From an uncultured Candidatus Saccharibacteria bacterium (GTDB taxonomy: Bacteria; Patescibacteriota; Minisyncoccia; Phycocordibacterales; UBA2100): DNA of 40,013 bases. This document shows, in pieces, positions 11,642 to 29,626 of the stretch. The stretch is taken from the NCBI GenBank assembly GCA_964592945.1, contig CAZQGK010000001.1, positions 9,224 to 49,236 on the forward strand, given 5' to 3'. A program made the translations under genes and the position numbers. Under the pieces are notes generated by a model that searched no databases, was not told where the DNA came from, and worked only from the letters and a program-made list of their open reading frames with translations. Each line of letters opens with the position of its first letter. Within the stretch, counting starts at the first letter, position 1.

Positions 11642-12751
11642 TTACTGGGAAATCAGCCGGATCTTGATATCTTTGTTTTCTTGCGTGAAAGGTCCCGCTG
11701 TTTGTACAATTTCAAGCGGTAAAAAGACACCTTTTTGTACGAGTTCAAACAAAGTCTGCGTCGGTGTGAGGAACAACTCACGCGAGAACTTATTCTTCGT
11801 TTCCTCCAGAAGCGCATCCGTCATCGTAGCGCCGCGACGGTACAGTCTCAGGGTAATTTGGCCTTTGGGCGAGCCGCCAGACTGGACCTCGCGGGCTTCC
11901 ACACGATAGTCGTCGACATACGGGAACAATCCAACAACGCGGTCGAACTCCTCACGCCGCAAGGTGGCTCCGGCGAGCTTTACATAATCACGGCCTGTGC
12001 GTCCGACAAGCTCAAATGTAACCGGCGCACCACACCGGCATTGCGGCAAAAACCGCGCAACATCTCCTACGCGGTACTGTCTAATATGTTCATCCTCTAT
12101 CGTAGTACTTATGTACACTTCCCCCGCCCCGCTCTCGTCAGGACCGACGATGTCGATCGTGACACCCTCTCCGGGATGATACTGGTTGCGCCTAAGGTAG
12201 CGGCAATTATCGAGTGATGACAGTCCTCCGAGTTCGCTCGTTACATAGAGCATGCGTACTGCGGCATCCGGCGTCTTTTCCGCAAATACACGCGCACGAT
12301 AGGCGGTAAGCATTTCGCCGGTAAGGAAGACATTTTTTATTCTTAGCCGTGCGGCGGTAGAAAGAGTCTCCAGTACTGCGGTGATAAACGATGGTACCCC
12401 GCGGAATGTATCCGGAGCAAAATCATCGAGAAGCATCCCTACCTCGGGTACCAGATCTCTGATATCGGTCGCCATGACTCGTATCGGCGCATTGCCCTCG
12501 CAGTAGCGCACTGAGAATACATTCGTAAGACGCGTGCTCATCGTGCCCATACAGGCGACCGGCCGTACCGAGTTTTTGAATATACTGAAAAGACGCGGCC
12601 GAGATAGTGTCGCGATGACCAGCGGCCAATCCCCCGTCGTTCCGGAGGTCGTGCGCACTATATATTGCCGCGCTTCCTCTGGCTTGAGATTAGCCGAGCG
12701 TAGTCGCGCGAGCGACCGTTCTCCAATTTCTATCAGATCAGCACGTTCCAT
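11642..12751 (-). CDS. Short PaaK/F390-synthetase-like adenylate-forming ligase A1
   Basis: 369 aa with RTTSGTTGDWP (P-loop), YRVGDVARF, CRCGAPVTFELVGRTGRDYVKLAG and a C-terminal NKDIKIR lysine. It lacks the N-terminal FY..LY segment present in A5 and A6. Confidence 0.8.
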   Translation of the reverse strand: MERADLIEIGERSLARLRSANLKPEEARQYIVRTTSGTTGDWPLVIATLSRPRLFSIFKNSVRPVACMGTMSTRLTNVFSVRYCEGNAPIRVMATDIRDLVPEVGMLLDDFAPDTFRGVPSFITAVLETLSTAARLRIKNVFLTGEMLTAYRARVFAEKTPDAAVRMLYVTSELGGLSSLDNCRYLRRNQYHPGEGVTIDIVGPDESGAGEVYISTTIEDEHIRQYRVGDVARFLPQCRCGAPVTFELVGRTGRDYVKLAGATLRREEFDRVVGLFPYVDDYRVEAREVQSGGSPKGQITLRLYRRGATMTDALLEETKNKFSRELFLTPTQTLFELVQKGVFLPLEIVQTAGPFTQENKDIKIRLISQ

Positions 12752-12753
12752 AC

Positions 12754-13491
12754 TTAAATTAAAACCGTGTCCGCCGGTATCCCCGTCCGGTACTTTACGA
12801 TCGGCGTCACAAGCTGCGCCAGCTTCGTGACGACAAGTTCGCCGTTATTGTTTTCAAGGACGCAATTCGAAAGCGGCCTCATAATAGGCTCCGAAAGTGT
12901 CGCCTCAGCTATCGCCCCCGTCTCCGGAAGAGCGAGAACGCAGCGTACGGTCCGCGCATATGGTGAGTATTGCGTGAGCGAGTTTCTATCAAATGCGGCG
13001 CCGACAAGCGTGATTGCTTCAAGTTGTTCGCTACGGCCGTCAAGGTACGGCCGTAGCCGCTCAAGAGCAGCAACATCCGTGATGAGCTGATCGACCTGAT
13101 ACCTAGATGCCGCATACGATGCTATGTCCGCGTCCTTTTCGCCTATCAGCGGCACCATGCCTCTGTCATAGCACCACATCGACTTCTCAAGCGCCTCATG
13201 CGGATCCGTCATATAGACCATCGGCCGCTTTGACTTCACTCCCCACGGCTCCCGCGCGATGTCCTCAAAACTCCATTCGGAAAGGAACGGCCCACCGGAA
13301 TTGTGCACGATCTTCACGAACGCCCGCTCGTCTTTGTAACGGCGCTGTGACAAAGGGGCGTGTATGAAGTCCGCCCGCGACACGTGCGGCAAGTTGGGAA
13401 GCCCCTTCGCACGGCCCCAGTGCCCGCTATAAAAAGACGAGGGGGCCCTCCGTACCCAAGTGATAAGTTCTTCTATCTGCTCGTCCGACAT
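12754..13491 (-). CDS. B-family protein B1: N-domain-only ligase paralogue with no P-loop
   Basis: 245 aa with a PaaK-like N-terminus (SFYSGHWG...LPHVSRADF). The P-loop position is degenerate (VHNSGGPF), and GELVVTKL...KYRTG is retained. The stop lies 2 nt before the A1 start. Confidence 0.75.
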   Translation of the reverse strand: MSDEQIEELITWVRRAPSSFYSGHWGRAKGLPNLPHVSRADFIHAPLSQRRYKDERAFVKIVHNSGGPFLSEWSFEDIAREPWGVKSKRPMVYMTDPHEALEKSMWCYDRGMVPLIGEKDADIASYAASRYQVDQLITDVAALERLRPYLDGRSEQLEAITLVGAAFDRNSLTQYSPYARTVRCVLALPETGAIAEATLSEPIMRPLSNCVLENNNGELVVTKLAQLVTPIVKYRTGIPADTVLI

Positions 13492-13611
13492 AGACTATCT
13501 GTGAAGGCTAGTGAAGTGAGTCTACCACGCGGTGTTTGCCTACGATGCGTAGCGACGGTATCATGCGAGCACACGAGTAGCATGTTCATTATTGGAAGGG
13601 AGGACGGAGTA

Positions 13612-13917
13612 ATGACCGAACCGTTGCCTGGTACGTCGCCGGCTGAATGCCAAGTATCCATCGGGGAACTCGGCATGGAAATGCTGTGGAGCCTGGTGAG
13701 AGCGGTGTGCGTCACCGTCATTCTGATCGGCCTATCGTGTGGTCCGGTCATTGCGATGGCGCAATTCGGCTTGGTCGGCCCGGGTACCCACCCGGGAACA
13801 CTGACGCTGGCATTCGCTCTTGTCATGACAGCAGTCGGAACACTGACCGGTGCGATAACATGTATCGCACTTATCGGCTCCCGGGTCCGGCTTACCGCGA
13901 ACGATATCGCGATGTGA
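13612..13917 (+). CDS. Hypothetical small two-TM membrane protein
   Basis: ATG 13612 is preceded by GGAAGGGAGGACGGAG. It has two hydrophobic helices (AVCVTVILIGLSCGPVIAMA and LAFALVMTAVGTLTGAITCIALIG). A good terminator follows. I recognise no family. Confidence 0.45.
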   Translation: MTEPLPGTSPAECQVSIGELGMEMLWSLVRAVCVTVILIGLSCGPVIAMAQFGLVGPGTHPGTLTLAFALVMTAVGTLTGAITCIALIGSRVRLTANDIAM

Positions 13918-13929
13918 GCGACACATAGC

Positions 13930-13971: not shown

Positions 13972-14046
13972 GAAATGGGAGACCGTGTCTCACCTTGTAT
14001 ACGAAGAACGTTCTCGCTTCGGTTCAACAGGCCTTATACCGGCTTC

Positions 14047-14126: not shown

Positions 14127-15068
14127 ATGCGCTTTATTCGAATGATGCTCACTTACGCGTTCGCGTGCATTGTCTCAGGTCCGGCACTCGGGGAAACCTT
14201 TCCCAGCCGGGCCATTACGGTCATCGTCCCCACTACGCCGGGGTCCGGGACCGATATCGGCACGCGGCTCATCGCCGACCATATGTCCAAGACCCTGGGT
14301 CAGCCAGTGGTTATTGAGAACGTGGGCGGTGCCATCGGGATTGTCGGGACGAGGCGCTGTGCAGACGCGACGGCGGACGGCTATACGATCTGCGCCACCA
14401 ACTACGGCCAGATCGTTCTCGCGCCCTTCGACTACAAGGCACGGGGCGAGAAACTGGGCTACGAAGTGTCGTCGCTTAGGCCGGTGGCACGAACACTGCT
14501 GTTCGATTTCGTGCTCGTCGCGCACAAGAATGTGGGCGCCACGCTTCCCGAAGTGCTCGCGTACGCGCGCGCACACAACGGGCTTACCGTCGGTAACGGC
14601 GGTACGACCGGTGAGTACGCCACAAAACTACTGCGTGGCCTGCAAGCCACAAAAGTGGTTTTCGTGCCGTACCGCGGCGACCCGCTTGCAATGGCGGACG
14701 TCCTCAACGGAAGCATCAACGCCGCCTTCATGACGGCCACTGTCGCACTGCCGCACCTCAAGAGCGACATAGTGCGCGTGGTCGGCACAGTGGGAAGGAA
14801 AAAAAGCGCCCTTCTGCAGACCGTCCCCACCCTGTACGAACAAGGGTGCCTGGCCTGCGGAGACCTCGACTCATGGGGCGGTATGTTTGCCCCGAATGGC
14901 GTGCCGGAGGACAGGATGCGTATCCTGAGCCGGGCGGTTCTTGCGGCGCTCCATGACCCGGGCGTCATCGAGAAGCTGGAAAAGGCCAAGCTTACGGCAT
15001 ATCCAGCAGCCCCCGACGTGTTCGCGAACGTCATCAAGCACAACATCGCGGAGGCTCAGAAACGTTGA
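14127..15068 (+). CDS. Bug/TctC-family periplasmic solute-binding protein (TctC-1), orphan
   Basis: 313 aa with a signal peptide, then FPSRAITVIVPTTPGSGTDIGTRLIA and ...VENVGGAIG..., which are Bug-family N-terminal hallmarks. SD GGGAGAGGGAG lies upstream. Confidence 0.85.
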   Translation: MRFIRMMLTYAFACIVSGPALGETFPSRAITVIVPTTPGSGTDIGTRLIADHMSKTLGQPVVIENVGGAIGIVGTRRCADATADGYTICATNYGQIVLAPFDYKARGEKLGYEVSSLRPVARTLLFDFVLVAHKNVGATLPEVLAYARAHNGLTVGNGGTTGEYATKLLRGLQATKVVFVPYRGDPLAMADVLNGSINAAFMTATVALPHLKSDIVRVVGTVGRKKSALLQTVPTLYEQGCLACGDLDSWGGMFAPNGVPEDRMRILSRAVLAALHDPGVIEKLEKAKLTAYPAAPDVFANVIKHNIAEAQKR

Positions 15069-15145: not shown

Positions 15146-16561
15146 CTATTTACACTCGGTCGGATACACAGGGAGGCATCCTGTTGTTACCGGCGCCGAG
15201 AGCGTGCTGTGGAGGTCGTTCTCGACATGTTCCCGGAGCTTGTCTTTCAGAGTGGTTGCCTTCGCGACCTCTTTCGTGATGAGGTTTTCTTTTTCGCGCG
15301 GGTCGGTATTCAAGTTGTAGAGTTCTTCTTTGCCGTTTTCCAACGTAATGATGTATTTCCAACCATCCGCAGTGCGCACGCCGCGCTTGTGCGTGAAGTC
15401 GCGATAATCCGTCTCGATGAATACATCCCTGCCGGCGGTGGCAGCTCCCGTGATGTACGGCAAGAGACTTTTGCCTTCAAGCTGTCCGGCGAACGTGCCC
15501 GACGCCATTCCGAGCATCTGCACGAGTGTCGGTGCGACGTCCATCATGCTTACCTGCGCGGAAATTTTCACTCCTCCGCGCGTGCCGGGGATGCTCACTA
15601 TGACGGGCACATGCACGAGCTCGTCGTACAGCGTATGCCCGTGGTCGATGCCGCCGTGTTCATGCCACTCTTCGCCATGGTCGGATAGGACCACGATGAC
15701 CGTATTTTTGAGGAGTCCCCGCCCGTCCAGTGCGGCGATAAAATCCCCCACCCCGGCATCAGCCGCACGGATTTTGCTGTCGTAAAGGCCGTTCCAAAAC
15801 GCGACATCGGCGGGGGTAAGCGAGAGCGGGGAAACGAGTTGGTCCTCGCGGAGTTTTGCTTCCTCCTGCGGCGAGCCCGTGTACGGACCCTTGTAATCTT
15901 TCGGGACGAAAGACTCCGAACTGGTGGCGAGCTTGAACTGACCGTGGAGGTCATAGCCGTGGAAGAACATGAAAAACTTTTGATTCTTCGGAAGTGTGTC
16001 GAGCCACGCAAGCGCGTGCGTCTCGCTGTTGCCCAAGCCGCCGAATGTTTCCGCGTCGGTATAGATATCAAATCCCAGTCCGTAGCCGAACGCGTGCCCA
16101 ACACCCGCGTCTCCCGTAAACCCGCCGGTTACATATCCTGCGGCCTTCATCGCCTGCGCCAGCGTTTCTATCTGCGGCGAGAGTGCGCGCAGATCAGATA
16201 ATATTTGCTTCTTCGGGTCCTTCGGATCGTACTCGACATACTTGTTCGTCACCTTGTGCACGGAAGGGTAGGCGCCCGTCATGACGGACATGAACGCGGG
16301 CACCGTCCAGCTCGAGGCGGATATGGCGTTCACAAAGCTGTATCCCCCCGCCGCCAAGGCGTCGATGTGGGGAGTGGTCTCACGCGGGTACCCGAACGAA
16401 TGCACGCGGTCGGCACGCAATGTGTCTATACCGATGATGATGACGTTGCAGTCTTTGCACGATATGTCCGAAGACGTAGGCGAGCCTTTTCCGGACACAG
16501 CGAGACCGAGTGTGATGACGACAATGAATAAAACCGCCCCGAACAGCGCGCGCGTAACCAT
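15146..16561 (-). CDS. Membrane-anchored sulfatase-fold (alkaline-phosphatase superfamily) ectoenzyme AP-1
   Basis: 471 aa with an N-terminal TM helix, then NVIIIGIDTLRADRV...TPHIDAL and DHGEEWHEHGGIDHG. SSWTVPAF occupies the position of the sulfatase CxPxR motif. Confidence 0.8.
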   Translation of the reverse strand: MVTRALFGAVLFIVVITLGLAVSGKGSPTSSDISCKDCNVIIIGIDTLRADRVHSFGYPRETTPHIDALAAGGYSFVNAISASSWTVPAFMSVMTGAYPSVHKVTNKYVEYDPKDPKKQILSDLRALSPQIETLAQAMKAAGYVTGGFTGDAGVGHAFGYGLGFDIYTDAETFGGLGNSETHALAWLDTLPKNQKFFMFFHGYDLHGQFKLATSSESFVPKDYKGPYTGSPQEEAKLREDQLVSPLSLTPADVAFWNGLYDSKIRAADAGVGDFIAALDGRGLLKNTVIVVLSDHGEEWHEHGGIDHGHTLYDELVHVPVIVSIPGTRGGVKISAQVSMMDVAPTLVQMLGMASGTFAGQLEGKSLLPYITGAATAGRDVFIETDYRDFTHKRGVRTADGWKYIITLENGKEELYNLNTDPREKENLITKEVAKATTLKDKLREHVENDLHSTLSAPVTTGCLPVYPTECK

Positions 16562-18164: not shown

Positions 18165-18171
18165 CCGCCTT

Positions 18172-18921
18172 TCAAACAGTGTCCGCCAAGTCGCCGGTGT
18201 AATATTTAATAATGGGGGTGGTGAGCGGCCTGTCTTTCGTGACCGTAAATCCTTCCTTGGTAGCGACCAGGAGGCAACCGGGAACAGGGATAAAAACAGG
18301 TTCGAGTGCGAACTCGGCTTCGGCAAATGCGCCGACCGCGGCTGCGGCGCGTACCAAGCGCATCCGACGCGCGTACGCGGTGAACGGCTGTAGTGTTCGT
18401 GTGTCAAAAGTCTCTCCTATGACCGTTATCGCCTCGAGCATTTCCTCCCGCTCCGCAAGGTATGGTGCGAGCTTTGTGAGCGCCCGTTCATCGGTGATGA
18501 GCGAATCGACGTTATACTTTCGAGCCGCAAAGGCGGCAATGTCGGGATCGGCCTCGCCGACGAGAGGGACCATGCCGTTCTCGTAACACCACACCGACTT
18601 CTCGAGTGCCTCATGAGAGTTCTCCATGTACACCAGCGGCCGCTTTGAGATGACGCCGAACGGTTCACGCGCAATATCCTCAAAGGCCCACTCGGAAAGA
18701 AACGATCCGTTCGCAGTATGAATAATCTTTACGAGAGAGATGTCGTCTTTGTATCTGCGTGTGGGAAGCGGAGCGCGCACGAAGTCGTCAATGGTAACAA
18801 GCGGCAACTCGTCGAAGGTGCGCTTGCCTCCCCATAGTTCCCGGTAAAAGGAAGCCTGAGGGTGGCTGGCAACAGCAGCGATGAGCCGCTCTATCTTATT
18901 GTTATCACGTAATTCAGGCAT
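18172..18921 (-). CDS. B-family protein B2: ligase paralogue with no P-loop
   Basis: 249 aa, alignable along its length with B1 and B3 (SFYRELWG, RRYKDD, FLSEWAFEDIAREPFG, HEALEKSVWCYENGMVPL, KYYTGD). The P-loop position reads IHTANGSF. Confidence 0.75.
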   Translation of the reverse strand: MPELRDNNKIERLIAAVASHPQASFYRELWGGKRTFDELPLVTIDDFVRAPLPTRRYKDDISLVKIIHTANGSFLSEWAFEDIAREPFGVISKRPLVYMENSHEALEKSVWCYENGMVPLVGEADPDIAAFAARKYNVDSLITDERALTKLAPYLAEREEMLEAITVIGETFDTRTLQPFTAYARRMRLVRAAAAVGAFAEAEFALEPVFIPVPGCLLVATKEGFTVTKDRPLTTPIIKYYTGDLADTV

Positions 18922-18923
18922 AG

Positions 18924-20039
18924 TTACGTGCGTTGCATAACCTTTACCTCTTTGAATTTGGCGGGAAAGGGTTCGGACACGAACTCGACAACGAGCGGGA
19001 GGAAGTTCTTTTCCGATACAAGTTCCCCGAGTGTCCGCGTAGGAGTGAGAAACAGGTTTTGGGATACCAATTCGGCGATGTGTGCACCTAATTGCGGATC
19101 TGAAACTCCATCGGCGCGGAACACGCGTAGCACGATCTTCCCCGTGATGCGGCCGTCAACTAATTCTTCCGAGGCCTCGGCACGATAGTCGTCGGCCATT
19201 CCCGGCTCCAGTGAAAGTACCCTGTCGAATTCCTCGCGTCGCAAAATCGTCCCGGCAATTTTCAAGTAGTCGAACCCACGCCTGCCGACAATTTCAAAAG
19301 TAATCGCCTCACCGCACGGGCAGGGACCGCACATACGCACAATATCGCCGGTGCGATATCTTTCTATCGTAACTCCCTGCGGTAAATGTCTCGTCACCAG
19401 GAGGTCGCCGTACCCGTGCTCGTCCGGCTCGCGTATTTCTATCGTTACGTCCTTGGCGGGATGGTACTGGTTCAGAGGAGTGTGCCCGCACGACGGCAAC
19501 GACACGGGCAAAAACAATTCCGTCACATTGTACATAGTCCGGATGCGGGCAAAAGGGAAACTCTCGCGCAGTAATTTTACCCGTGGTTCGGTCATCACCT
19601 CGCCTGCGACATCCATAGTACTCACTCCGCGTCGAACATCCTCAGGAACGTTCGACGAGAGCTTGATGGCGAACGATATGAGCCCGCGTATATGGTCGGG
19701 TGCGAATTCACTGAGCAGACGGGGAAGCTCCGGAGTGAAATCGTCGTAATCCAGGGCAAGCGATGCAGATCTGTTGCACGCAGGGTTGCTCCTCATTATA
19801 ACGAGATACCTCAAACGTATGCTTCGCGTACCGACACAGGTAAGACGCCGTCTTGAGTCGCCCACCCAATCCGGCGCAAGACGCCCGGCCGCAACGGCCA
19901 GCATGAGCCCCTTACCTGTGCTTCCGGAGGTCGTACACAAGCAATACGCATACACGTCTTTGTGCCCTTCACGTATCACTTCAGCAAGAAGAGGATCGCA
20001 TATGACCCGCGGCGCGTCTTTACGCTCTAATATCTCCAT
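18924..20039 (-). CDS. Short PaaK/F390-synthetase-like adenylate-forming ligase A2
   Basis: 371 aa with CTTSGSTGKG (P-loop), YRTGDIVRM, CPCGEAITFEIVGRRGFDYLKIAG and a C-terminal KFKEVKV. The start lies 6 nt after the C1 stop. Confidence 0.8.
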   Translation of the reverse strand: MEILERKDAPRVICDPLLAEVIREGHKDVYAYCLCTTSGSTGKGLMLAVAAGRLAPDWVGDSRRRLTCVGTRSIRLRYLVIMRSNPACNRSASLALDYDDFTPELPRLLSEFAPDHIRGLISFAIKLSSNVPEDVRRGVSTMDVAGEVMTEPRVKLLRESFPFARIRTMYNVTELFLPVSLPSCGHTPLNQYHPAKDVTIEIREPDEHGYGDLLVTRHLPQGVTIERYRTGDIVRMCGPCPCGEAITFEIVGRRGFDYLKIAGTILRREEFDRVLSLEPGMADDYRAEASEELVDGRITGKIVLRVFRADGVSDPQLGAHIAELVSQNLFLTPTRTLGELVSEKNFLPLVVEFVSEPFPAKFKEVKVMQRT

Positions 20040-20045: not shown

Positions 20046-20270
20046 CTACTCCAAAAAACCTCCGCAACTAACAAAGAGTATCTTATTCGGATTTTGTTTC
20101 GGCGCTTGTTGCACGCCGCTATCGGGCGAGCACTCATTGTCCGAAGCAAGTTTCGGCGTATTGTTGTGAGCGAAAAATTGCTGTACGTATATATATGTGT
20201 ACAAGAGCGCGGCAAACACGAAGGCCGCAGCGACGATGACCATTTGGCGGATAGTGATGCGCTCTCGCAT
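20046..20270 (-). CDS. Tail peptide C1: 74-aa N-terminally membrane-anchored peptide ending ...NPNKILFVSCGGFLE
   Basis: It has a basic N-terminus (MRERITIRQ) and a TM helix (MVIVAAAFVFAALLYTYIYV). The C-terminal SCGGF is shared with three other small ORFs but encoded by different codons. TACAAT lies 6 nt upstream of the ATG. Confidence 0.75.
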   Translation of the reverse strand: MRERITIRQMVIVAAAFVFAALLYTYIYVQQFFAHNNTPKLASDNECSPDSGVQQAPKQNPNKILFVSCGGFLE

Positions 20271-20276
20271 AATTTC

Positions 20277-20282
20277 ATTGTA
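20277..20282 (-). promoter_or_regulatory. -10 box (TACAAT) 6 nt from the C1 ATG; TTGCCC lies 16 nt further upstream
   Basis: The reverse strand reads TTGCCC-16 nt-TACAAT-gaaatt-ATG, with no SD. The spacer contains the 20288..20303 inverted repeat. Confidence 0.4.
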
Positions 20283-20324
20283 GCGCGTGCCCGTACGCGG
20301 GCAAGCCGCGGCTATATTACCGCC

Positions 20325-22047: not shown

Positions 22048-22425
22048 TCACACAGGAAATTCGCGTCTCTCAACCTCGCGAACCCTCTCCGGCTTAAAGT
22101 ACTTCTTAGCCAGCACAAAAAAACGCTCCGCTTTGGCGTCGTTATTTTCTGAATAATGACAATAAAACAGACGGATATGTGCGGTGCCGGCTTCGGGCCA
22201 TGTGTGTATGTCAACGCTGGATTCTCCAATTATCACAGAGACCGTCACTCCGCCTGCACCCTCAAACTTTTTACTCGCGACCGGCTCATATACCGTAAAG
22301 CCGGCCTTGCGCACGAGTCCTGCAAACGCAGCGCCTAGATCTGCATCGGTCAGTGCTGCGACATTCGCACAGTCCTGAAAAATCCAGCCGCGATCGATGC
22401 TTATGGTATCGTTCATGGTCCGCAA
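22048..22425 (-). CDS. speH: S-adenosylmethionine decarboxylase proenzyme (small, pyruvoyl-dependent type)
   Basis: 125 aa with VIIGESSVDIHTWPE, which is the self-cleavage Glu-Ser site and the HTWPE motif. Confidence 0.85.
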   Translation of the reverse strand: MRTMNDTISIDRGWIFQDCANVAALTDADLGAAFAGLVRKAGFTVYEPVASKKFEGAGGVTVSVIIGESSVDIHTWPEAGTAHIRLFYCHYSENNDAKAERFFVLAKKYFKPERVREVERREFPV

Positions 22426-22428
22426 ATC

Positions 22429-24093: not shown

Positions 24094-25441
24094 AGGATTC
24101 TGTATGGCCCGCAGCCTTCCGGGCCTCTTCGCGAATACGGCCGCTTTGCATGATGAGCTCCAACTGTTCCGCGGTAGTATCTTCGAGTATCGCGTCCGCC
24201 GATCGATATAGTATGCCTTCCGGCTTTACCCTGCCGGAACCGAGGAAATTGGGCTTTTCAGCAATCCTCCACACGCTCTCATTAAACGGTAGATAGTAGA
24301 TGCTCGGATGAGTGCGCATGAGAACCCAGTACCATGCAAGGTGGGACGTGAACGTACCGTGCCGCATATGATCTTTCGCGTTCTCAAGGACGGTCTGGTG
24401 GTCCTCTACGCATGCTCCGAGAAGCAGATCGATCAGGCTCGATTTTTGCGCCCGCAGTGCTTGCGCGTCGAGCGACGGCCTGCGATGGATATCAACGATC
24501 GTCGAAACATCCGCCCAATATGTCTGATCGCGCATCGTATAAAAGTTTGTTGACGGCTGATACCAATATGGTATCCCCTTGCCTCTGAGATGCGCCAGTG
24601 AGCTCAGTTTTGTTGTATCAGGACCGATTTTCTGGAAGAGAAATAGATCAAGCGCAGAGATTTTGAGGCTCACGGTGCCGCTCCGATCATCGCGCACGAT
24701 ATAGAGCATGAACGGGTGTGTGGTCGGCGTACCGTCAAACTGTGATAGTTCGTATGCAAAAGGTCCGTGCTTCTCGAGGATGGTGCTGCGTCGAAATGGT
24801 AAGGAATGAGTGAGCTCGAGTTCGTGAAGGTGGGCGTAGCGTGCGGGGGCAGTACACTGCCGGTATTTCAGATCTGTTTCCGCAGTAGTTGGCTTTGGGA
24901 TCCGGGAACATTCCTTCCCCGCGGCAATCTCTTGGCGTGCTATAAGCTCGACACGCAGCCGATCTGCATTCGCACGAAGCGTCCGTAACGTGTGGTTAAT
25001 ATCCGAAAGAGTACTCGTGTTGCCATGCATATCCTGCAGCGGAGCCGCTTCTGCATTCTTGCGGTCAAGGCTGAGAAGTATGCGGTGCATCCGCGTGAAG
25101 CGCGCGACATCGGCACCATACGCGCTGCACGTAACATCCCATGCTTCAAGCAGATCACGCTGTGAGCGCCCGGTCGGGTTCGCGAGAAAGTGCCGGCGGC
25201 AGCGCTCGCTCTCGATGAACGCCCGAATGAACGACAGGGGAATGGCGTACCGCGTAAGCGGGTACCGCGTAAGGAACAAGCGTCGCATGAGCGAATGACC
25301 GCCGACTGCCTCCTCGAATTCACGGGCGACCGACTGAATGGCATCAAGCGCCGTCTCGGCGCGCTCAAGGTCCATGCCCACAGCGGCAAAGAGAGGGTCG
25401 TTTCGCACCAGATCAACAAATGTTTCCGTAACGCCTTTCAT
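24083..25441 (-). CDS. E-family protein E2 (paralogue of E1)
   Basis: The start is set at ATG 25441 (MKGVTETFVDLVRNDPLFAAVG), which aligns with the E1 N-terminus. TATACT lies 6 nt upstream. The track start 25465 adds 8 aa. It is collinear with E1 to the C-terminus (TTAEQLELIMQSGRIREEAR versus TTPEEMDLIMQGGRIRKEAR). Confidence 0.7.
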   Translation of the reverse strand: MKGVTETFVDLVRNDPLFAAVGMDLERAETALDAIQSVAREFEEAVGGHSLMRRLFLTRYPLTRYAIPLSFIRAFIESERCRRHFLANPTGRSQRDLLEAWDVTCSAYGADVARFTRMHRILLSLDRKNAEAAPLQDMHGNTSTLSDINHTLRTLRANADRLRVELIARQEIAAGKECSRIPKPTTAETDLKYRQCTAPARYAHLHELELTHSLPFRRSTILEKHGPFAYELSQFDGTPTTHPFMLYIVRDDRSGTVSLKISALDLFLFQKIGPDTTKLSSLAHLRGKGIPYWYQPSTNFYTMRDQTYWADVSTIVDIHRRPSLDAQALRAQKSSLIDLLLGACVEDHQTVLENAKDHMRHGTFTSHLAWYWVLMRTHPSIYYLPFNESVWRIAEKPNFLGSGRVKPEGILYRSADAILEDTTAEQLELIMQSGRIREEARKAAGHTESYAH

Positions 25442-25542
25442 GGCGATAGTATACCCTTTTGCCAAGGCAAAACGATTAGTATAGTATCAGCCACTGGTTC
25501 AAATCGTGGCGGATATCCGTCACAAGTACAAGGAGAAGGACA

Positions 25543-26535
25543 TTGAAAATACTTGCAAGAGTGGCTGCTGCGGCCGTGTTGGTCGTTGCATCTCTTGGGT
25601 TCGCGCAAGCGTATCCCGATGGGCCGGTGCGCGTTATAGTCCCGACGCAGGCCGGTAACCCGGCTGATATCGTGACGAGGATCTTGTGCGACAAGTTGAG
25701 TGAGATCCTCGGGGCTCGATTCTTCGTCGAAAACCGCCCCGGAGCATTCGGCGAGATCGCGTTCCGTGACCTCGTGCGGGCAGCTCCGGACGGTTACACG
25801 TTGGGGCACTCCGGCAACGGCCCGATAACTATCCTACCCGCTGCGCGAGTTGCAGCGGATATGCCGAAAGACAAGATCCCGTACGACCCGATACGGGATC
25901 TCGAGCCCATCAACTTCACCGCTTACGACCAATTCGTCTTTGCGGTGCCGAGGAGTAGTCCATTTCGCTCCTCGAAAGAGCTGGTGGACTATGCCCGGGC
26001 ACATCCCGATGAGCTCGCGATAGCCGCGGGTACACCGAGCGGCAGGTTGGCGGTTGCCTTCCTCAACGCAATCCCTGGCGTGCGCGTCAGGGAAATCGGA
26101 TCCGGACAAGGAGAGGAAACAGCGTACCGGGATATCCGTAGCGGCGAGAAGATTGACGGTATCTTCTCCACGGTGCTCGGGGCTCTTCCGAAAGAAGACA
26201 TCGTGCGACCGCTTGCCCTCGTCGGCGGGACCAGAACCCCACTGTTTCCAAACGTGCCAACGATGGTCGAAGAAGGATTCGAGACCTTCGACGCGAGAAT
26301 GGAAGCCTGGTACGCCTTCACCGGGCCGAAGGGACTTCCAAAGCCCATCATCGAGAAGCTGAGTAAGGCGATCGATACGGCCGTGCGCGATCCGCGCGTC
26401 CAAGAAAGGTTGGCGAAAATCGGCATCACGACTCGCCATTCGACAACCGCGGTTCTCAGCGATGAGATTGCGCGGCAGTACAAGGGACTGGCGGCGTTTA
26501 TGAAGGAGAACGGGGTCAAGTTGCTCGGTAAGTAG
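25543..26535 (+). CDS. Bug/TctC-family solute-binding protein (TctC-2), orphan
   Basis: 330 aa with a TTG start after AGGAGAAGGA. The signal peptide ends FAQA and is followed by YPDGPVRVIVPTQAGNPADIVTRIL. Confidence 0.85.
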   Translation: MKILARVAAAAVLVVASLGFAQAYPDGPVRVIVPTQAGNPADIVTRILCDKLSEILGARFFVENRPGAFGEIAFRDLVRAAPDGYTLGHSGNGPITILPAARVAADMPKDKIPYDPIRDLEPINFTAYDQFVFAVPRSSPFRSSKELVDYARAHPDELAIAAGTPSGRLAVAFLNAIPGVRVREIGSGQGEETAYRDIRSGEKIDGIFSTVLGALPKEDIVRPLALVGGTRTPLFPNVPTMVEEGFETFDARMEAWYAFTGPKGLPKPIIEKLSKAIDTAVRDPRVQERLAKIGITTRHSTTAVLSDEIARQYKGLAAFMKENGVKLLGK

Positions 26536-26605: not shown

Positions 26606-27724
26606 CTATTGCGAGACTCGTCTAAGCTTCACGTCTTTATGTTTTTGAGGAAAGGGCTTGGCGGAAAATGTAACAGTAAGCGGCAAAAACGCGCCCTTCC
26701 CAACCAGGTCGGCAAGCGTCTGCGTGGGCGTAAGAAATACCGCGCGGGAAAAATTGCGGGCAATTTCTTCGGCGAGCGCGGGCGTGCCCTGCCCTTTGCG
26801 AGAGAAGACGTGCAGAATGATACTGCCTTTAAGTTTTCCATTGACAAGCTTTTCCCCCGCTTCCACTCGATAATCATCGATAGAATGCGCAAAGAGCGCG
26901 GCAACCCGATCAAATTCTTCGCGGCGGACGATGGTGCCTGAGATCTTGATATAGTCGTTGCCACCGCGGCCAAGATGTTCAAATGTGACCGGAGCGCCGC
27001 ATACGCACGGCTCGTTACTCAAGCGGCCTATATCGCCGATCGCATATCGCTCAATGTGTTCTCCGTACGAAAGGATTTTGGAGACGATAATATCGCCTAC
27101 TTCCGTTTCGTCCCTATCAATAATATCGATTTTGACGTCGGGTGCCTCGTGGTAGACATTTGGCGGGAGGTTTGTGCACTGCACGCCGATGAGGCCGATC
27201 TCGTTCGTCCCGTAGAACATCGTGATGCGGGCAAGCGGCGCAAGCGACCGGAAGGATTTGAGGCGCGCTGGCTCCAGGCGCTCGCCGGCGAGTCGGAACG
27301 TGCGAATAGCCTGAGGTACGACGGGCGTGGAAACCTTGAGTACGAGCCCGATAAACGATGCGGTCCCCGATACCTCGTCGGGCATAAGATCCTCGAGTAT
27401 GTTTCCGAGTCGCGGAACATCCTCATTATCAATGTTCAATACTGATCTCGGTTTCTCGCCGCGCGCGTGTCTGAAGTGGAGCGTGTTTGCCAGCCGGACA
27501 TTTCGTGAGCCCATACAGATGAGGAGATTTGAAGTCTCCGCGTACTTCGAAAACTGTCGGTCACCGTACTCTAGGACTGAGACGATAGGAGTGTCAGACG
27601 TCCCAGACGTAAGCCTGATGCCGAACCGGCAAGCCTCACGTGGCACAGAGGCAATAAAATCTTCGAGTAGCCGCGCATCGACCGCCGCGATATCTGTGCG
27701 ATCTACGAATCCTCCATCCGTCAT
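26606..27724 (-). CDS. Short PaaK/F390-synthetase-like adenylate-forming ligase A3
   Basis: 372 aa with RLTSGTSDTP (a variant P-loop), FYGTNEIG, YAIGDIGRL, CVCGAPVTFEHLGRGGNDYIKISG and a C-terminal KHKDVKL. It has an ATGA overlap with the B3 stop. Confidence 0.75.
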   Translation of the reverse strand: MTDGGFVDRTDIAAVDARLLEDFIASVPREACRFGIRLTSGTSDTPIVSVLEYGDRQFSKYAETSNLLICMGSRNVRLANTLHFRHARGEKPRSVLNIDNEDVPRLGNILEDLMPDEVSGTASFIGLVLKVSTPVVPQAIRTFRLAGERLEPARLKSFRSLAPLARITMFYGTNEIGLIGVQCTNLPPNVYHEAPDVKIDIIDRDETEVGDIIVSKILSYGEHIERYAIGDIGRLSNEPCVCGAPVTFEHLGRGGNDYIKISGTIVRREEFDRVAALFAHSIDDYRVEAGEKLVNGKLKGSIILHVFSRKGQGTPALAEEIARNFSRAVFLTPTQTLADLVGKGAFLPLTVTFSAKPFPQKHKDVKLRRVSQ

Positions 27725-28470
27725 ACGACCGTGATATCACGGATATCCGTGCGGTATCGAATGACCGGCGTAATCAGGCGTGTGAGCTTCGTGACGACAA
27801 GAGTGCCGTCCTCCGATTCGACAAACGTATTAGGCACCGTGCGGAATACAGGTTTATCGGCAAGCGGCGCTTCGGCAATCGCTCCCACCTCGGGCAACCG
27901 CAAAACGAAGCGGACCGTTCGCGCGAAATCCGAGAACGGCATGAGCGTCGGCGCGTCGAATGAATCGCCGAGAACGGTAAGCGACATGAGTTTTTCCCCG
28001 CGACGTTTCAAATATGGCAACAATTTCGGGAGAGATGCGGTGTCTGTGATAAGCTGGTCGATACGATACTTCCCCGCCGCGAACATCGCGATATCGGCAT
28101 CACGTTCGCCGATGAGCGGCACCATGTTGTTTTCATAGCACCACATGGATTTCTCCAATGCCTCGTGCGAGTCCTCCAGATAGACCATTGGACGCTTCGA
28201 TGGTACGCCCCATGGTTCTTGCCCGATGTCATCGAAACTCCATTCTGAAAGGAACGGGCCCTCTGGTGTGTGAACGATTTTCACCAGCGCTTTCTCATCT
28301 TTATATCGCCGCTTGGAGAGCGGCACTTTCAGAAAATCGTTCCGTGAGACCAAAGGGAGCTCGTCAAAATTTGCAACTCTCCCCCAGATTTCGCGGTAGA
28401 ATCCGGACATTCCGCTTTTCATCACGTCATCTACGAATGCTGATATGCTGTTTTTTATTCCGTGTTCCAT
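27721..28470 (-). CDS. B-family protein B3: ligase paralogue with no P-loop
   Basis: The start is set at ATG 28470 (MEHGIKNS...), 4 nt after the A4 stop, which gives 249 aa like B1 and B2. The track start 28548 overlaps A4. Motifs are GFYREIWG, RRYKDE and FLSEWSFDDIGQEPWG. The P-loop position reads VHTPEGPF. Confidence 0.75.
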   Translation of the reverse strand: MEHGIKNSISAFVDDVMKSGMSGFYREIWGRVANFDELPLVSRNDFLKVPLSKRRYKDEKALVKIVHTPEGPFLSEWSFDDIGQEPWGVPSKRPMVYLEDSHEALEKSMWCYENNMVPLIGERDADIAMFAAGKYRIDQLITDTASLPKLLPYLKRRGEKLMSLTVLGDSFDAPTLMPFSDFARTVRFVLRLPEVGAIAEAPLADKPVFRTVPNTFVESEDGTLVVTKLTRLITPVIRYRTDIRDITVV

Positions 28471-28474
28471 GGAG

Positions 28475-29626
28475 CTATATTCGTTGCGACAACCTGACCT
28501 CTTTGCCCTTCTCCTTCTCAAGCTCCGCTCCTCCAAACTCAACCGCAAGCGGCATTATATAACCGGACTCCACGAGTGTATTAAGCGTTTTGGCGGCGGT
28601 TACAAATAACTCCTCGGAAAAACGCCGCCGTATTCGCTCTAAAAGAGCGGCGTCACCCTGTCCATCTTTCCGGTATATCTTTAGGGTTATTCTGCCTTTG
28701 AGCTTTCCCCCCGACATGACACTGTCAACGTGGACGAAATAATCATCCATCAAATCGCTGCACAACAGTGCCACCCTGTCGAATTCCTCCCTTCGCAATA
28801 TTACGCCGGCCACTTTGAGGTAATCGGACCCGCGTTTCCCCACCACTTCGAAGGTGACCTTTTCACCGCATGCGCATTCTATACTATGGAGTCTGCCAAC
28901 ATCTCCGATTTTGTACCGTTGTATGGAAATATTTCTGTTGAAATTTTTTGAGATCAATATATCACCAACCCCGCTATCGTCGGGTCCGGCTATCTCCACC
29001 GTCACGCCATCGTGCGGGTGGTACTGATTCGGAGGCAGAAATCCGCAAGAGGGTTTTGATATCTGACCGGTTTCTCCGGAAGAATATAGCATCCGTATTT
29101 CCGCGTAGGGGAAAGAAGTGCGTATCAGTATCTCGGCCTTTTTTGACAGACCCTCCCCCGTAAACCGCAGACTGTTGATTTTTCTTCTCGCCTCTTCGTC
29201 CAAATAGTCGGTCATTTTGGAGATAAAGAATGGAAATCCATACAATCTGTCGGGCGCAAAATCAGAAAGTAGCTCGGAAACACCCTGTATCATATCGCGC
29301 GCATCCATAACAATAACGCGGGACGGACTGCCCGGATCACTGTTCCTCAAGAAAAGAAGCGAGCCAAGCCTCATTCCCAATACACCTTGGCAGAGGAGCG
29401 TTCTTTTTGCGCCGGCGGGAAATGTATGGATGTTGACCCCGCTTCCCCATGCGAGAAGAAGCGGTTCGCCGCCTGATGTGCCGGACGTCATGCGCAGACC
29501 ACAACGCTTGGCCTCTTCTTTCGGCGCGGACAAAAGGTCCGCCAGCATTTTTTCGGCCACAGGCTTAAAATCCCCGCGCTCCATGACGGAAGCAGTACGC
29601 ATTTCACTTTTCTTGAAGCTTTTCAT
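28475..29626 (-). CDS. Short PaaK/F390-synthetase-like adenylate-forming ligase A4
   Basis: 383 aa with RMTSGTSGGEP (P-loop), LYSSGETG, YKIGDVGRL, CACGEKVTFEVVGKRGSDYLKVAG and a C-terminal KEKGKEVRL. Confidence 0.8.
   Translation of the reverse strand: MKSFKKSEMRTASVMERGDFKPVAEKMLADLLSAPKEEAKRCGLRMTSGTSGGEPLLLAWGSGVNIHTFPAGAKRTLLCQGVLGMRLGSLLFLRNSDPGSPSRVIVMDARDMIQGVSELLSDFAPDRLYGFPFFISKMTDYLDEEARRKINSLRFTGEGLSKKAEILIRTSFPYAEIRMLYSSGETGQISKPSCGFLPPNQYHPHDGVTVEIAGPDDSGVGDILISKNFNRNISIQRYKIGDVGRLHSIECACGEKVTFEVVGKRGSDYLKVAGVILRREEFDRVALLCSDLMDDYFVHVDSVMSGGKLKGRITLKIYRKDGQGDAALLERIRRRFSEELFVTAAKTLNTLVESGYIMPLAVEFGGAELEKEKGKEVRLSQRI

What the first reader, a model, noticed from the sequence alone, without database searches (positions are those of the whole stretch)
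11642..29626. Each short ligase is coupled to a truncated paralogue that lacks a P-loop (B family)
B1, B2 and B3 are 245-249 aa. They keep PaaK-like N-terminal features (FY..[HEL]WG, LP.V.R.DF) and the GELVVTKL...KY[RY]TG block. The phosphate-binding loop position reads HNSGGP, HTANGS or HTPEGP instead of [ST]SG[ST][ST]G, and the C-terminal subdomain with the catalytic Lys is missing. B genes are fused to A genes by 2-4 nt gaps or an ATGA overlap, in the orders B-A, A-B and A-B-A. The short A proteins lack the N-terminal segment that B retains, which suggests an obligate A/B complex of active enzyme and pseudo-enzyme. PaaK-type enzymes are known to dimerise through their N-terminal region.
Basis: partly seen in the sequence, partly recalled or inferred. 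Interest (0 to 1): 0.7.

Follow-up and report, generated by a model that had tools for sequence, protein, structure and literature searches.

The report
Dead ligase paralogue paired with ligases
In this candidate-phyla-radiation (Kaiserbacteria-like) genome, each short PaaK-like adenylating ligase sits next to a conserved 250-residue paralogue that keeps only the ligase's N-terminal domain and has lost every ATP-binding element. It most likely works as a non-catalytic partner subunit, which I found no description of for this enzyme superfamily.

Summary
Seven minus-strand genes (A1-A4, 369-383 aa; B1-B3, 245-249 aa) are joined by 2-4 nt gaps or an ATGA overlap.

B has no Pfam, NCBIfam or PDB sequence match. 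Its AlphaFold2 model (pLDDT 96) is the N-terminal domain of PaaK-type ANL ligases (ClxA, BT_0428, AjiA1, EhpF).

Across 121 family representatives:
- the P-loop is replaced by a tight hairpin;
- the adenine Tyr, phosphate Thr and ribose Asp are replaced;
- the C-terminal domain is absent.

B is not decaying: dN/dS is 0.17, and 177 clusters exist, all those traced being in Patescibacteria. About 30 of 31 informative B genes abut an A gene, and A-B-A triplets recur.

A keeps all catalytic motifs but lacks most of the PaaK N-terminal microdomain, which B keeps.

An A/B heteromer is the best reading, because PaaK-type enzymes need N-domain dimerisation. It is untested: no multimer run was possible.

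Two new facts change the picture. A second pair type (D truncated plus C full-length ligase) shows that microdomain complementation is not the general rule. A conserved microprotein, S, ending in ...LF[IV]SCGGF.., precedes most A/B operons.

The parts
11642..12751 (-). A1, short PaaK-like ANL ligase (369 aa), downstream of B1
   Evidence: ORF. A-family HMM score 476 bits. TSGT P-loop at residue 35. Weak NCBIfam ANL hits.
12754..13491 (-). B1, N-domain-only paralogue without a P-loop (245 aa)
   Evidence: ORF. B-family HMM score 380 bits. 2 nt gap to A1.
18172..18921 (-). B2, N-domain-only paralogue without a P-loop (249 aa)
   Evidence: ORF. B-family HMM score 362 bits. 2 nt after the A2 stop.
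18924..20039 (-). A2, short PaaK-like ANL ligase (371 aa), upstream of B2
   Evidence: TSGS at residue 37.
20046..20270 (-). S_AB microprotein (74 aa). One N-terminal hydrophobic helix, two Cys, C-terminus ...NPNKILFVSCGGFLE. It ends 6 nt upstream of A2.
   Evidence: Motif scan of all six frames. The same ORF sits directly upstream of the A/B operon in about 25 related loci. Tail conservation is given. No Pfam or NCBIfam hit.
26606..27724 (-). A3, short PaaK-like ANL ligase (372 aa), downstream of B3
   Evidence: AF2 model has pLDDT 90 with N- and C-domains. Foldseek to BT_0428 gives E 7.5e-18, with ClxA and PaaK1 also hit. ATGA overlap with B3.
27721..28470 (-). B3, N-domain-only paralogue without a P-loop (249 aa from the ATG)
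   Evidence: AF2 model has pLDDT 96. Residues 61-78 form a tight beta-hairpin where the P-loop should be. Foldseek to ClxA gives E 9.3e-12 and TMq 0.73.
28475..29626 (-). A4, short PaaK-like ANL ligase (383 aa), upstream of B3
   Evidence: TSGT at residue 47. 4 nt gap to B3.
33969..34700 (+). D1, a second kind of truncated ANL N-domain protein (243 aa). It ends just after the C.CG motif.
   Evidence: No Pfam or NCBIfam hit. hhalign D versus B gives 88% / E 3e-6. ATGA overlap with C1. The family has 39 proteins.
34697..35962 (+). C1, full-length PaaK-like ligase (421 aa) with a complete N-terminal microdomain and an ASSGTSGNP P-loop
   Evidence: NCBIfam PaaK E 1.6e-15. hhalign A versus C gives 99.9%. 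Start set by the ATGA overlap.
36021..36272 (+). S_CD microprotein (83 aa) ending ...GEIYYVSCGGFF, downstream of C1
36256..37002 (+). D2, truncated ANL N-domain protein (248 aa from a GTG; the start may be the ATG at 36289)
   Evidence: ATGA overlap with C2.
36999..38252 (+). C2, full-length PaaK-like ligase (417 aa)
   Evidence: NCBIfam PaaK E 5e-16..
38300..38536 (+). S_CD microprotein (78 aa) ending ...NEVFFVSCGGFF, downstream of C2
24083..25465 (-). E2, conserved protein of unknown function (context). The paralogue E1 lies within ORF 8681-10339 (-). E follows the A/B operon on the same strand in many related loci.
   Evidence: No Pfam, NCBIfam, PDB or PADLOC hit. Neighbourhood map.
31133..32797 (+). 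F2, membrane-anchored protein of unknown function (context). The paralogue F1 is at about 20325-22031 (+), divergent from S-A2-B2.
   Evidence: No hits. F lies divergently upstream of the A/B operon in many loci. Weak collinear similarity to E, E 0.006.

Best explanation
B is a stand-alone, catalytically dead paralogue of the N-terminal domain of PaaK-type adenylate-forming (ANL) ligases. It keeps the fold, the three-helix N-terminal microdomain and the beta-hairpin that normally carries the P-loop. It has lost the P-loop, the adenine-, phosphate- and ribose-binding residues and the entire C-terminal domain with the hinge Arg and catalytic Lys, so it cannot adenylate anything.

It is made from the same transcript as one or two catalytically complete but N-terminally shortened ligases (A). 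It most likely binds them through the N-domain interface that PaaK-type enzymes use to homodimerise. That would give an active/inactive heteromer (A:B, or A:B:A') in which B stabilises or positions A, and possibly recruits its substrate.

Shown here: the fold, the loss of the nucleotide site, family-wide conservation under purifying selection, conserved adjacency and translational coupling.

Inferred: physical association, the interface used and any effect on activity.
For: Fold and homology
- B3's AF2 model has pLDDT 96.
- Foldseek against PDB hits ClxA 9s3l (E 9.3e-12, TMq 0.73), BT_0428, AjiA1 and EhpF 3hgv.
- hhalign of B against the full-length ligase family C gives 88.6% / E 2.6e-6 over B 5-174 = C 3-191. 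The C P-loop SSGTSGNP aligns to a B segment 5 residues shorter.
- hhalign gives E 4e-5 for B versus A and 88% for B versus D.

Dead nucleotide site, in 121 representatives
- No P-loop motif, apart from two chance partial matches.
- A5 Tyr is replaced by Leu190 in 107/121.
- A5 Thr is replaced by Pro193 in 103/121.
- A7 Asp is replaced by Ile or Leu at position 243 in 103/121.
- No member extends past the C.C motif.
- The roles of these residues are taken from the ClxA structure paper, PMC12519233.

A is competent
- TSGT, Y..ExG, GD, GR..D..K and K363 are invariant or nearly so.
- The model has two domains, and Foldseek gives E 1e-17 to PaaK-type structures.

B is functional
- 177 clusters at 50% identity, all about 245-300 aa.
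- dN/dS is 0.17 for B against 0.14 for the neighbouring A.

Linkage
- 2-4 nt gaps or an ATGA overlap.
- 29-30 of about 31 informative B genes abut an A gene on the same strand, including 8 A-B-A triplets.
- Three of three loci seeded from A also carry B.

Plausibility of the interface
- In PaaK1 the isolated P-loop makes N-domain dimerisation necessary, and HCL dimerises through a shared seven-stranded sheet (PMC8388817).
- The hairpin strands are among B's best conserved segments (K64 in 101/121).
Against: - No complex was predicted or measured.
- No natural B-A fusion exists among the 177 representatives.
- One B gene (L003) is separated from its nearest A by about 3 kb and an opposite-strand gene.
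- In the closest structural relatives of B (ClxA, NatL2, AjiA1), the catalytic Lys reaches into the partner's active site (PMC12519233). If A worked that way, a 1:1 A:B dimer would leave A without a Lys.
- The A/B distance-matrix correlation (r 0.79) is confounded by species phylogeny and adds nothing.
- B's many conserved polar residues (R54, R93, E106, E122, D143, E194, E218) would also fit a ligand site of its own.
Confidence: 0.55

Rival explanations
1. B is a substrate-recruiting or presenting subunit, not merely a structural half-dimer. It would bind the conserved microprotein S, or another acceptor, through its retained microdomain and remodelled former active-site cleft, and hand it to the ligase(s). 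This resembles how RiPP recognition elements or MbtH-like proteins serve their enzymes. It overlaps with the best explanation and differs in what B binds.
For: - S sits directly upstream of the A/B operon in about 25 loci, and its last 15 residues are almost invariant.
- The S subtype tracks the ligase-pair type. NPNK.LF.SCGGF[LI][ED] goes with A/B, and GEI.F.SCGG[FI][FY] goes with D/C.
- B keeps conserved polar residues, including E194 and G196 at the former A5 motif.
- The PaaK microdomain has been proposed to recruit other proteins (PMC7497051).
Against: - The positive-inside rule puts S's C-terminal tail outside the cell in 22 of 29 sequences.
- 28 of 29 S sequences have two Cys 14-26 residues apart, suggestive of an extracellular disulfide. 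That tail would then be out of reach of cytoplasmic A and B.
- Two of the three A/B operons in this window have no S gene.
Confidence: 0.2
2. B is an enzyme in its own right with a new, non-adenylating activity. For example, it could be a transferase or hydrolase acting on the acyl-adenylate or on the product made by A. In that case it is functionally coupled to A but not a stable subunit.
For: - Strong conservation of charged residues across 121 representatives: R54 120/121, R93 113, E106 108, E194 116, E218 109.
- B paralogues are more conserved than A paralogues at deep divergence, 43% against 35% mean identity.
- EhpF (3hgv), a structural hit 346 residues long, is a free-standing protein of similar build. 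From my own memory, unverified, it is a C-domain-less ANL protein.
Against: - No recognisable catalytic motif.
- Several conserved residues (R54, Y56, Y25, P39) are also conserved in ordinary PaaK-like ligases of family C, so they are probably structural.
- Tight translational coupling, including ATGA overlaps, is more typical of subunits made in fixed ratio.
Confidence: 0.15
3. B is an evolutionary relic, a decaying duplicate with no function.
For: Loss of every catalytic element.
Against: - Intact ORFs in 177 clusters.
- dN/dS of 0.17.
- A model with pLDDT 96.
- Conserved position next to A in about 30 loci.
Confidence: 0.02

Closest known systems
PaaK-type phenylacetate-CoA ligases (PaaK1/PaaK2, PDB 2Y27/2Y4N/2Y4O; BT_0428, 4R1L; HCL, 6HE0)
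   Same: - A and B both have the PaaK-type N-domain fold.
- B also has the N-terminal three-helix microdomain and the R.[YF] and LP...[KR]..[LF] features.
- A has all the ANL core motifs.
- The known enzymes depend on N-domain dimerisation (PMC8388817).
   Different: - The known enzymes are homodimers (or monomers) of one full-length chain.
- Here one chain (A) lacks most of the microdomain, and the other (B) lacks the P-loop, the nucleotide contacts and the C-domain.
- Sequence similarity is too low for Pfam or NCBIfam thresholds.
ClxA / NatL2 / AjiA1 amide- and ester-forming PaaK-like ligases (9S3L, 6SIX, 6WUQ)
   Same: - They are the best structural match of B and the best sequence match of the A profile, E 1.2e-10.
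- They are obligate dimers with composite active sites (PMC12519233).
   Different: - They are homodimers in which each subunit donates its C-terminal Lys to the other.
- B has no C-terminal domain to donate.
- Whether A's K363 acts in cis or in trans is unknown.
EhpF (PDB 3HGV), phenazine-pathway ANL protein
   Same: It is a free-standing ANL N-domain-type protein of about 346 residues and a significant structural hit to B (E 5e-7).
   Different: - My recollection that EhpF lacks the C-terminal domain rests on memory and was not verified here.
- It is not known to be paired with a full ligase.
- There is no detectable sequence similarity to B.
Dead-paralogue activators ('prozymes'), e.g. trypanosomatid AdoMetDC/prozyme
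   Same: It shares the concept: a catalytically inactive paralogue heterodimerises with the active enzyme and is needed for its activity (PMC5201418).
   Different: It is an unrelated fold and lineage. No such case turned up for the ANL superfamily in the literature searches.
MbtH-like proteins of NRPS adenylation domains
   Same: They are small non-catalytic partners encoded next to ANL adenylating enzymes and often required for their solubility or activity. This rests on my own knowledge. A structure with such a partner (6EA3) appears among the hits.
   Different: They are not homologous to the enzyme they assist, are about 70 aa, and bind a different surface.
dlt operon (dltX-dltA-dltB-dltC-dltD) and the DltX acyl-shuttle microprotein
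   Same: - The gene order matches: microprotein, then ANL ligase.
- S, like DltX, has one N-terminal membrane helix and a highly conserved extreme C-terminal motif with hydrophobic-x-nucleophile-x-x-F spacing. S has [IV]-S-C-G-G-F; DltX has F-X-Y-X-X-F (PMC12148441).
   Different: - S has Cys where DltX has Tyr.
- S is longer and has a second Cys.
- No MBOAT, SGNH protein or carrier protein was found in the cluster.
- This is a resemblance only.

Membership tests
ANL superfamily, PaaK-like subfamily (tested for B) | N-terminal domain fold | tested here: met
   Foldseek against ClxA gives E 9.3e-12 and TMq 0.73, and 97 PDB hits have E <= 1e-3; all 50 listed are ANL proteins.
ANL superfamily, PaaK-like subfamily (tested for B) | A3 phosphate-binding loop [ST][ST]G[ST][ST]G | tested here: not met
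   It is replaced by a hairpin 5 residues shorter. It is absent in 119 of 121 representatives, and the other two carry only partial strings.
ANL superfamily, PaaK-like subfamily (tested for B) | A5 YGxTE (adenine Tyr, phosphate Thr, Mg Glu) | tested here: not met
   B reads L-x-L-P-E-x-G. Tyr is replaced by Leu in 107/121 and Thr by Pro in 103/121. Only the Glu (116/121) and Gly (120/121) are kept.
ANL superfamily, PaaK-like subfamily (tested for B) | A7 Y-x-T-G-D (ribose-binding Asp) | tested here: not met
   Y239 and T241 are kept, but the Asp position is Ile or Leu in 103/121.
ANL superfamily, PaaK-like subfamily (tested for B) | C-terminal domain with the A8 hinge Arg and the A10 catalytic Lys | tested here: not met
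   B ends 10-27 residues after Y239. Among the 177 family clusters no listed member exceeds 302 aa.
ANL superfamily, PaaK-like subfamily (tested for B) | PaaK-type N-terminal helical microdomain | tested here: met
   Three helices (residues 2-17, 24-29, 43-48) precede the hairpin. They align to the N-terminus of the full-length ligases C. The microdomain is described in PMC8388817.
ANL superfamily, PaaK-like subfamily (tested for A) | Core motifs A3, A5, A7, A8 and A10, and a two-domain fold | tested here: met
   S40, G41, E175, G230, D231, G252, D257 and K363 are invariant, and T39, T42, Y171, R253 and K260 nearly invariant (>=90%), in 23 sequences. Foldseek gives E 7.5e-18 to BT_0428, with PaaK1 and ClxA also hit.
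ANL superfamily, PaaK-like subfamily (tested for A) | Curated sequence thresholds (Pfam AMP-binding; NCBIfam PaaK) | tested here: not met
   Pfam PF00501 scores 9.9-11.8 bits against a cut-off of 29.9. NCBIfam hits are far below their cut-offs.
ANL superfamily, PaaK-like subfamily (tested for A) | PaaK-type N-terminal microdomain (about 70 residues before the P-loop) | tested here: not met
   The P-loop starts at residue 33-40 in 22 of 23 members (22 in P0065), against Ser94 in PaaK1. The model has one helix, residues 9-25 (PMC8388817).
Active enzyme / dead-paralogue heteromer ('prozyme'-type) | The inactive partner is a paralogue of the enzyme and lacks catalytic residues | tested here: met
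Active enzyme / dead-paralogue heteromer ('prozyme'-type) | Conserved co-occurrence, and selection acting on the inactive partner | tested here: met
   Adjacency in about 30 of 31 loci. dN/dS of 0.17.
Active enzyme / dead-paralogue heteromer ('prozyme'-type) | Physical complex, and dependence of activity on the partner | not testable with these tools
This needs AF-Multimer, pull-down and enzyme assays.
Dlt-type acyl-shuttle pathway (tested for the S microprotein and the cluster) | Membrane microprotein with a conserved C-terminal FXYXXF motif | tested here: not met
   The architecture and spacing are similar, but the nucleophile position is Cys and the motif is LF[IV]SCGGF (PMC12148441).
Dlt-type acyl-shuttle pathway (tested for the S microprotein and the cluster) | MBOAT transferase, carrier protein and SGNH transferase in the cluster | tested here: not met
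   No such Pfam domains appear in any window ORF tested. The 489-aa membrane protein has no Pfam or PDB match.

The most novel reading that the evidence does not exclude
The A/B pairs, and the parallel D/C pairs, are the cytoplasmic part of a Patescibacteria-specific pathway built around the ribosomally made microprotein S. In this reading the ligase pair activates a carboxylate, perhaps one captured by the neighbouring TctC-type binding proteins. It then loads it onto, or ligates it to, the invariant ...SCGGF tail of S.

S would then be a peptide-borne thiol or C-terminus that replaces CoA or phosphopantetheine as acyl acceptor. This parallels the dltX-dltA acyl-shuttle logic, with B or D as the non-catalytic subunit that docks S. 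That would be a new kind of acyl-carrier or envelope-acylation system in organisms that, from my own knowledge, often lack CoA biosynthesis.
Probability: 0.12. Interest if true: 0.85.

Novelty: new variant of a known kind. Interest (0 to 1): 0.6.

Why it matters
ANL adenylate-forming enzymes are among the best studied enzyme superfamilies, including acyl-CoA ligases, NRPS adenylation domains and luciferases. I found no report of one that works with a dedicated catalytically dead paralogue.

A conserved, strongly selected family of this kind would add a new quaternary solution to the PaaK-type requirement for dimerisation. The evidence for its scale:
- 177 clusters of B, plus a second truncated family, D;
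- always found next to ligases.

It also flags an uncharacterised gene cluster that takes up more than 25 kb of a small candidate-phyla-radiation genome:
- 11 ANL-derived genes;
- 3 microproteins;
- 4 TctC-type binding proteins;
- two families of unknown function.

That suggests something central to how these episymbiotic bacteria acquire or attach carboxylic acids. The hypothesis can be tested directly with AF-Multimer, co-purification and adenylation assays.

Tried and rejected
- **Family and sequence searches on B.** Pfam, NCBIfam and PADLOC gave nothing above noise, only 30-residue matches at the C-terminal block. Sequence searches of PDB with 3- and 45-sequence B profiles gave nothing significant.
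- **hhalign with only the window paralogues.** It gave 4% probability. Family alignments were needed.
- **Mirror-tree test.** The Mantel correlation of adjacent A and B distances was r 0.79, p 1e-4. I rejected it as evidence for interaction because three close genome pairs and one outgroup clade drive it, which is species signal.
- **Rosetta-stone search.** No B-A fusion exists among the 177 representatives. The 302-aa P0119 is B followed by low-complexity, frameshift-like sequence.
- **'Exactly one microdomain per pair' (B long + A short; C long + D short).** It holds in this window. I rejected it as a rule because most D-family members keep a Y..WG N-terminal remnant.
- **Position-specific A subfamilies.** A genes downstream of B are somewhat more alike (39.6%) than those upstream (35.5%), p 2e-4. 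The effect is small and I treat it only as a hint.
- **Literature.** No paper was found on ANL pseudo-enzyme partners or on these genes in the candidate phyla radiation. The primary PaaK1/2 structure paper is not held.
- **E, F and the 489-aa membrane protein.** No Pfam, NCBIfam or PDB matches, and no PADLOC match where tested.
- **First dN/dS script.** It timed out and was rerun.

Full report
**What is there**

The region 11642-29626 holds seven minus-strand genes.
- Four are about 370-aa proteins: A1 11642-12751, A2 18924-20039, A3 26606-27724 and A4 28475-29626.
- Three are about 247-aa proteins: B1 12754-13491, B2 18172-18921 and B3 27721-28470.

- TAA-GT-ATG (B1>A1)
- TAA-CT-ATG (A2>B2)
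- TAG-CTCC-ATG (A4>B3)
- an ATGA overlap (B3>A3)

The B proteins are 53-57% identical to each other and the A proteins 37-42%.

**Where the window comes from**

The left end of the window is syntenic with a Candidatus Kaiserbacteria contig. It carries GAPDH, the prepilin-type N-methylation gene, ribulose-phosphate epimerase, split transketolase, PCC and L25. Every genome hit for B in the species-representative collection is a Patescibacteria (CPR) MAG.

**What A is**

The A proteins fall below the Pfam and NCBIfam thresholds. Other evidence places them clearly.
- A four-sequence profile hits ClxA (9s3l, E 1.2e-10) and BT_0428 (4r1l, E 2.4e-7).
- The AF2 model of A3 (pLDDT 90) is a two-domain ANL enzyme. 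Its best structural matches are BT_0428, ClxA, NatL2, AjiA1 and PaaK1/2, with E about 1e-17.
- In 23 family members the P-loop T-S-G-T, the A5 Y...E.G, the A7 G-D, the A8 G-R..D..K and a C-terminal Lys (K363) are invariant or nearly so.

By motif criteria, A is therefore a competent adenylating enzyme.

A's P-loop begins at residue 33-40 in 22 of the 23 members (residue 22 in P0065). In PaaK1 the P-loop serine is Ser94, preceded by a microdomain of about 70 residues forming a three-helix bundle (PMC8388817). The A3 model has one helix (residues 9-25) before the P-loop strand. Where B precedes A, no longer reading frame is available for A. 'Short' is therefore real, not a start-codon artefact.

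**What B is**

B has no Pfam or NCBIfam family and no sequence match in PDB.
- A search of 5.8 billion proteins found 52 relatives, all unnamed and about 245-260 aa.
- An exhaustive profile search of 1.84 billion cluster representatives found 177, all about 245-300 aa apart from fragments.
- The AF2 model of B3 is very confident (pLDDT 96, pTM 0.92).
- Foldseek places it on the N-terminal domain of PaaK-type ligases. Hits are ClxA (E 9.3e-12, TMq 0.73), BT_0428, AjiA1, EhpF 3hgv, and then dozens of other ANL enzymes.

Profile-profile comparison makes the homology explicit.
- B aligns over residues 5-174 with residues 3-191 of the full-length ligases C in the same window (88.6%, E 2.6e-6). This includes the whole N-terminal microdomain (FYR..[WY]G, LP...[RK]..[FL], R.[YF]).
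- In that alignment the C P-loop SSGTSGNP faces a B segment five residues shorter.
- In the model this segment is a tight beta-hairpin, with strands at 61-68 and 71-78.
- B also aligns with the A family from residue 90 to the A7 block (E 4e-5).

I mapped the nucleotide contacts listed for ClxA (adenine Y219, phosphate T222, ribose D281, Lys from the C-terminal extension; PMC12519233) through that alignment onto 121 B representatives.

| Contact | State in B |
|---|---|
| Adenine Tyr | Leu in 107/121 |
| Phosphate Thr | Pro in 103/121 |
| Ribose Asp | Ile or Leu in 103/121 |
| P-loop | absent |
| C-terminal domain | never present |

Only the Glu and Gly of the A5 motif survive (116 and 120 of 121). 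That condition is not met.

**B is not a relic**

- In the one genome pair with unsaturated dS, dN/dS is 0.17 for B and 0.14 for the adjacent A.
- At deep divergence B is more conserved than A, 43% against 35% mean identity over 15 pairs.

**Linkage**

I fetched 15 genome loci and 25 metagenome loci seeded from B. With family HMMs I found that 29-30 of about 31 B genes with informative flanks abut an A gene on the same strand.
- 9 have A only upstream.
- 8-9 have A only downstream.
- 8 are A-B-A triplets like the one in the window.

The one clear exception is L003. Three loci seeded from A instead all have B next to it, and two of those are triplets. No B-A fusion protein was found.

**Mechanism**

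[quoted passage not shown] The relative HCL dimerises through a seven-stranded sheet shared by the two subunits (PMC8388817). ClxA and NatL2 even complete each other's active sites (PMC12519233).

B keeps the hairpin strands, which are well conserved, while its turn is variable. It also keeps the N-domain core.

The best-supported reading is therefore that B takes the place of the second subunit of a PaaK-type dimer. That gives an active/inactive heteromer with the A made from the same mRNA, conceptually like a 'prozyme' (PMC5201418). The recurrent A-B-A triplets suggest that one B can serve two different ligases.

This step is inference. I could not run a multimer prediction, and the mirror-tree signal (r 0.79) is explained by species relatedness. 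One caveat: if A's catalytic Lys works in trans as in ClxA, a simple 1:1 A:B dimer would not be productive.

(i) Downstream, on the plus strand, there are two further translationally coupled pairs with ATGA overlaps.
- D1 33969-34700 pairs with C1 34697-35962.
- D2 36256-37002 pairs with C2 36999-38252.
- C is a full-length PaaK-like ligase with the complete microdomain (NCBIfam PaaK E about 1e-15; 99.9% hhalign to A).
- D is another orphan family of about 245-270 aa (39 relatives, no names). It is related to B (88%, E 3e-6) and to A (E 9e-5). It has no P-loop (PSSF remnant) and ends just after the C.CG motif.
- D-C pairs recur in eight other loci.

Truncated dead partners therefore also accompany ligases that have not lost their N-terminus. 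'B supplies what A lacks' cannot be the general reason for the partnership. The tidy idea of one microdomain per pair fails outside this window.

(ii) A conserved microprotein, S, belongs to the operons.
- It is 68-85 aa. It has basic residues and one hydrophobic helix at the N-terminus, and usually two Cys 14-26 residues apart.
- Its extreme C-terminus is almost invariant.
- Type S_AB (...NPNK.LF[IV]SCGGF[LI][ED]*; Cys 25/25, following Gly-Gly 22 and 25 of 25, Phe 24/25) lies directly upstream of the first gene of the A/B operon in about 25 loci. In the window it is at 20046-20270, 6 nt from A2.
- Type S_CD (...GEI[FY][FY][VL]SCGG[FI][FY]*) lies directly downstream of C. In the window it is at 36021-36272 and 38300-38536. 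It also occurs in L003 and L044.
- S has no known family.

The co-variation of S type with ligase-pair type argues for a specific functional link.

The arrangement microprotein-then-ANL-ligase, and the hydrophobic-x-nucleophile-x-x-Phe tail, recall dltX-dltA and the DltX FXYXXF acyl-shuttle motif (PMC12148441). However, the nucleophile would be Cys, no MBOAT, SGNH or carrier protein is present, and the predicted topology puts the tail outside the cell. This is a lead, not a classification.

**Neighbourhood**

The cassettes are embedded in a conserved set of genes.
- F is divergent from the operon, membrane-anchored and of unknown function.
- E follows on the same strand, is of unknown function, and is weakly similar to F.
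- TctC-type binding proteins occur four times in the window.
- The window also has two sulfatases and an AdoMet decarboxylase next to a membrane-fused spermidine-synthase-like protein.

**Verdict**

- The structural part of the interpretation (truncated, P-loop-less, catalytically dead paralogue; shortened A) is supported.
- The obligate-complex idea is the best explanation but unproven (confidence about 0.55).
- The N-terminal complementation rationale is at best partial.

I could not find this arrangement described for the ANL superfamily. I rate it a new variant of a known kind.

Noticed in passing
window 33969-38252 (+): There is a second kind of coupled pair. D1 and D2 are truncated, P-loop-less ANL N-domain proteins of 243 and 248 aa. 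Each overlaps by ATGA the start of a full-length PaaK-like ligase, C1 (421 aa) or C2 (417 aa). D is an orphan family of 39 unnamed relatives, related to B. D-C pairs recur in L003, L011, L012, L017, L032, L034 and L044.
   Followed up: partly
window 20046-20270 (-), 36021-36272 (+), 38300-38536 (+); also about 25 related loci: A conserved microprotein S belongs to the operons. It has an N-terminal membrane helix, two Cys and an almost invariant C-terminus. ...NPNK.LF[IV]SCGGF[LI][ED] is found upstream of A/B operons, and ...GEI.F.SCGG[FI][FY] downstream of D-C pairs. It has no known family. Gene order and tail spacing resemble dltX-dltA and the DltX acyl-shuttle motif, with Cys in place of Tyr.
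   Followed up: partly
window 8681-10339 (-), 24083-25465 (-), ~20325-22031 (+), 31133-32797 (+): Two paralogous families have no Pfam, NCBIfam or PDB match. E is about 460 aa and soluble. F is about 555-570 aa with an N-terminal membrane anchor. E usually follows the A/B operon on the same strand and F lies divergently upstream. E and F show weak collinear similarity (BLASTP E 0.006). The ORF 20094-22031 as listed overlaps S, so F1 probably starts at the ATG near 20325.
   Followed up: partly
window 14127-15068, 25543-26535, 29810-30799, 32909-33883 (all +): Four TctC/Bug-family solute-binding proteins (Pfam PF03401, E 5e-25 to 3e-45) are interleaved with the ligase cassettes. No TctA or TctB membrane component was recognised in the window. 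TctC also flanks A/B operons in related loci. These proteins bind carboxylates, which are the substrate class of ANL ligases.
   Followed up: partly
window 22048-24093 (-): An S-adenosylmethionine decarboxylase (125 aa, PF02675) lies directly downstream of a 554-aa protein. That protein joins a multi-helix membrane domain to a spermidine-synthase domain (PF01564). This is a polyamine module inside the island and a possible source of amine acceptors for amide-forming ligases.
   Followed up: no
window 15146-16561 and 16578-18407 (-): Two sulfatase-family proteins lie between cassettes. The longer ORF's TTG start overlaps B2 by 236 nt, so its real start is probably further downstream. An arylsulfotransferase occupies a similar place in the Kaiserbacteria locus L001.
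   Followed up: no
window 10138-11607 (-): A 489-aa multi-helix membrane protein lies directly downstream of A1, with no Pfam, NCBIfam or PDB match. Homologues sit next to the cassette in L004 and L030. It could be the transporter or transferase of the system.
   Followed up: partly
A genes in window and loci L001-L046: A genes located downstream of B are more similar to each other (mean 39.6% identity) than A genes located upstream of B (35.5%, equal to the between-class value). The permutation p is 2e-4, and 22 of 29 nearest neighbours are of the same positional class. This hints that A-B-A is an old unit with two distinct ligase lineages.
   Followed up: partly
window 1-8674: The left part of the window is ordinary core metabolism: lytic transglycosylase, L25, split transketolase, PCC domain protein, ribulose-phosphate epimerase, a prepilin-type protein and GAPDH. 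It is syntenic with Kaiserbacteria contig JACRFK010000003. The ligase island begins right after GAPDH in both genomes.
   Followed up: partly
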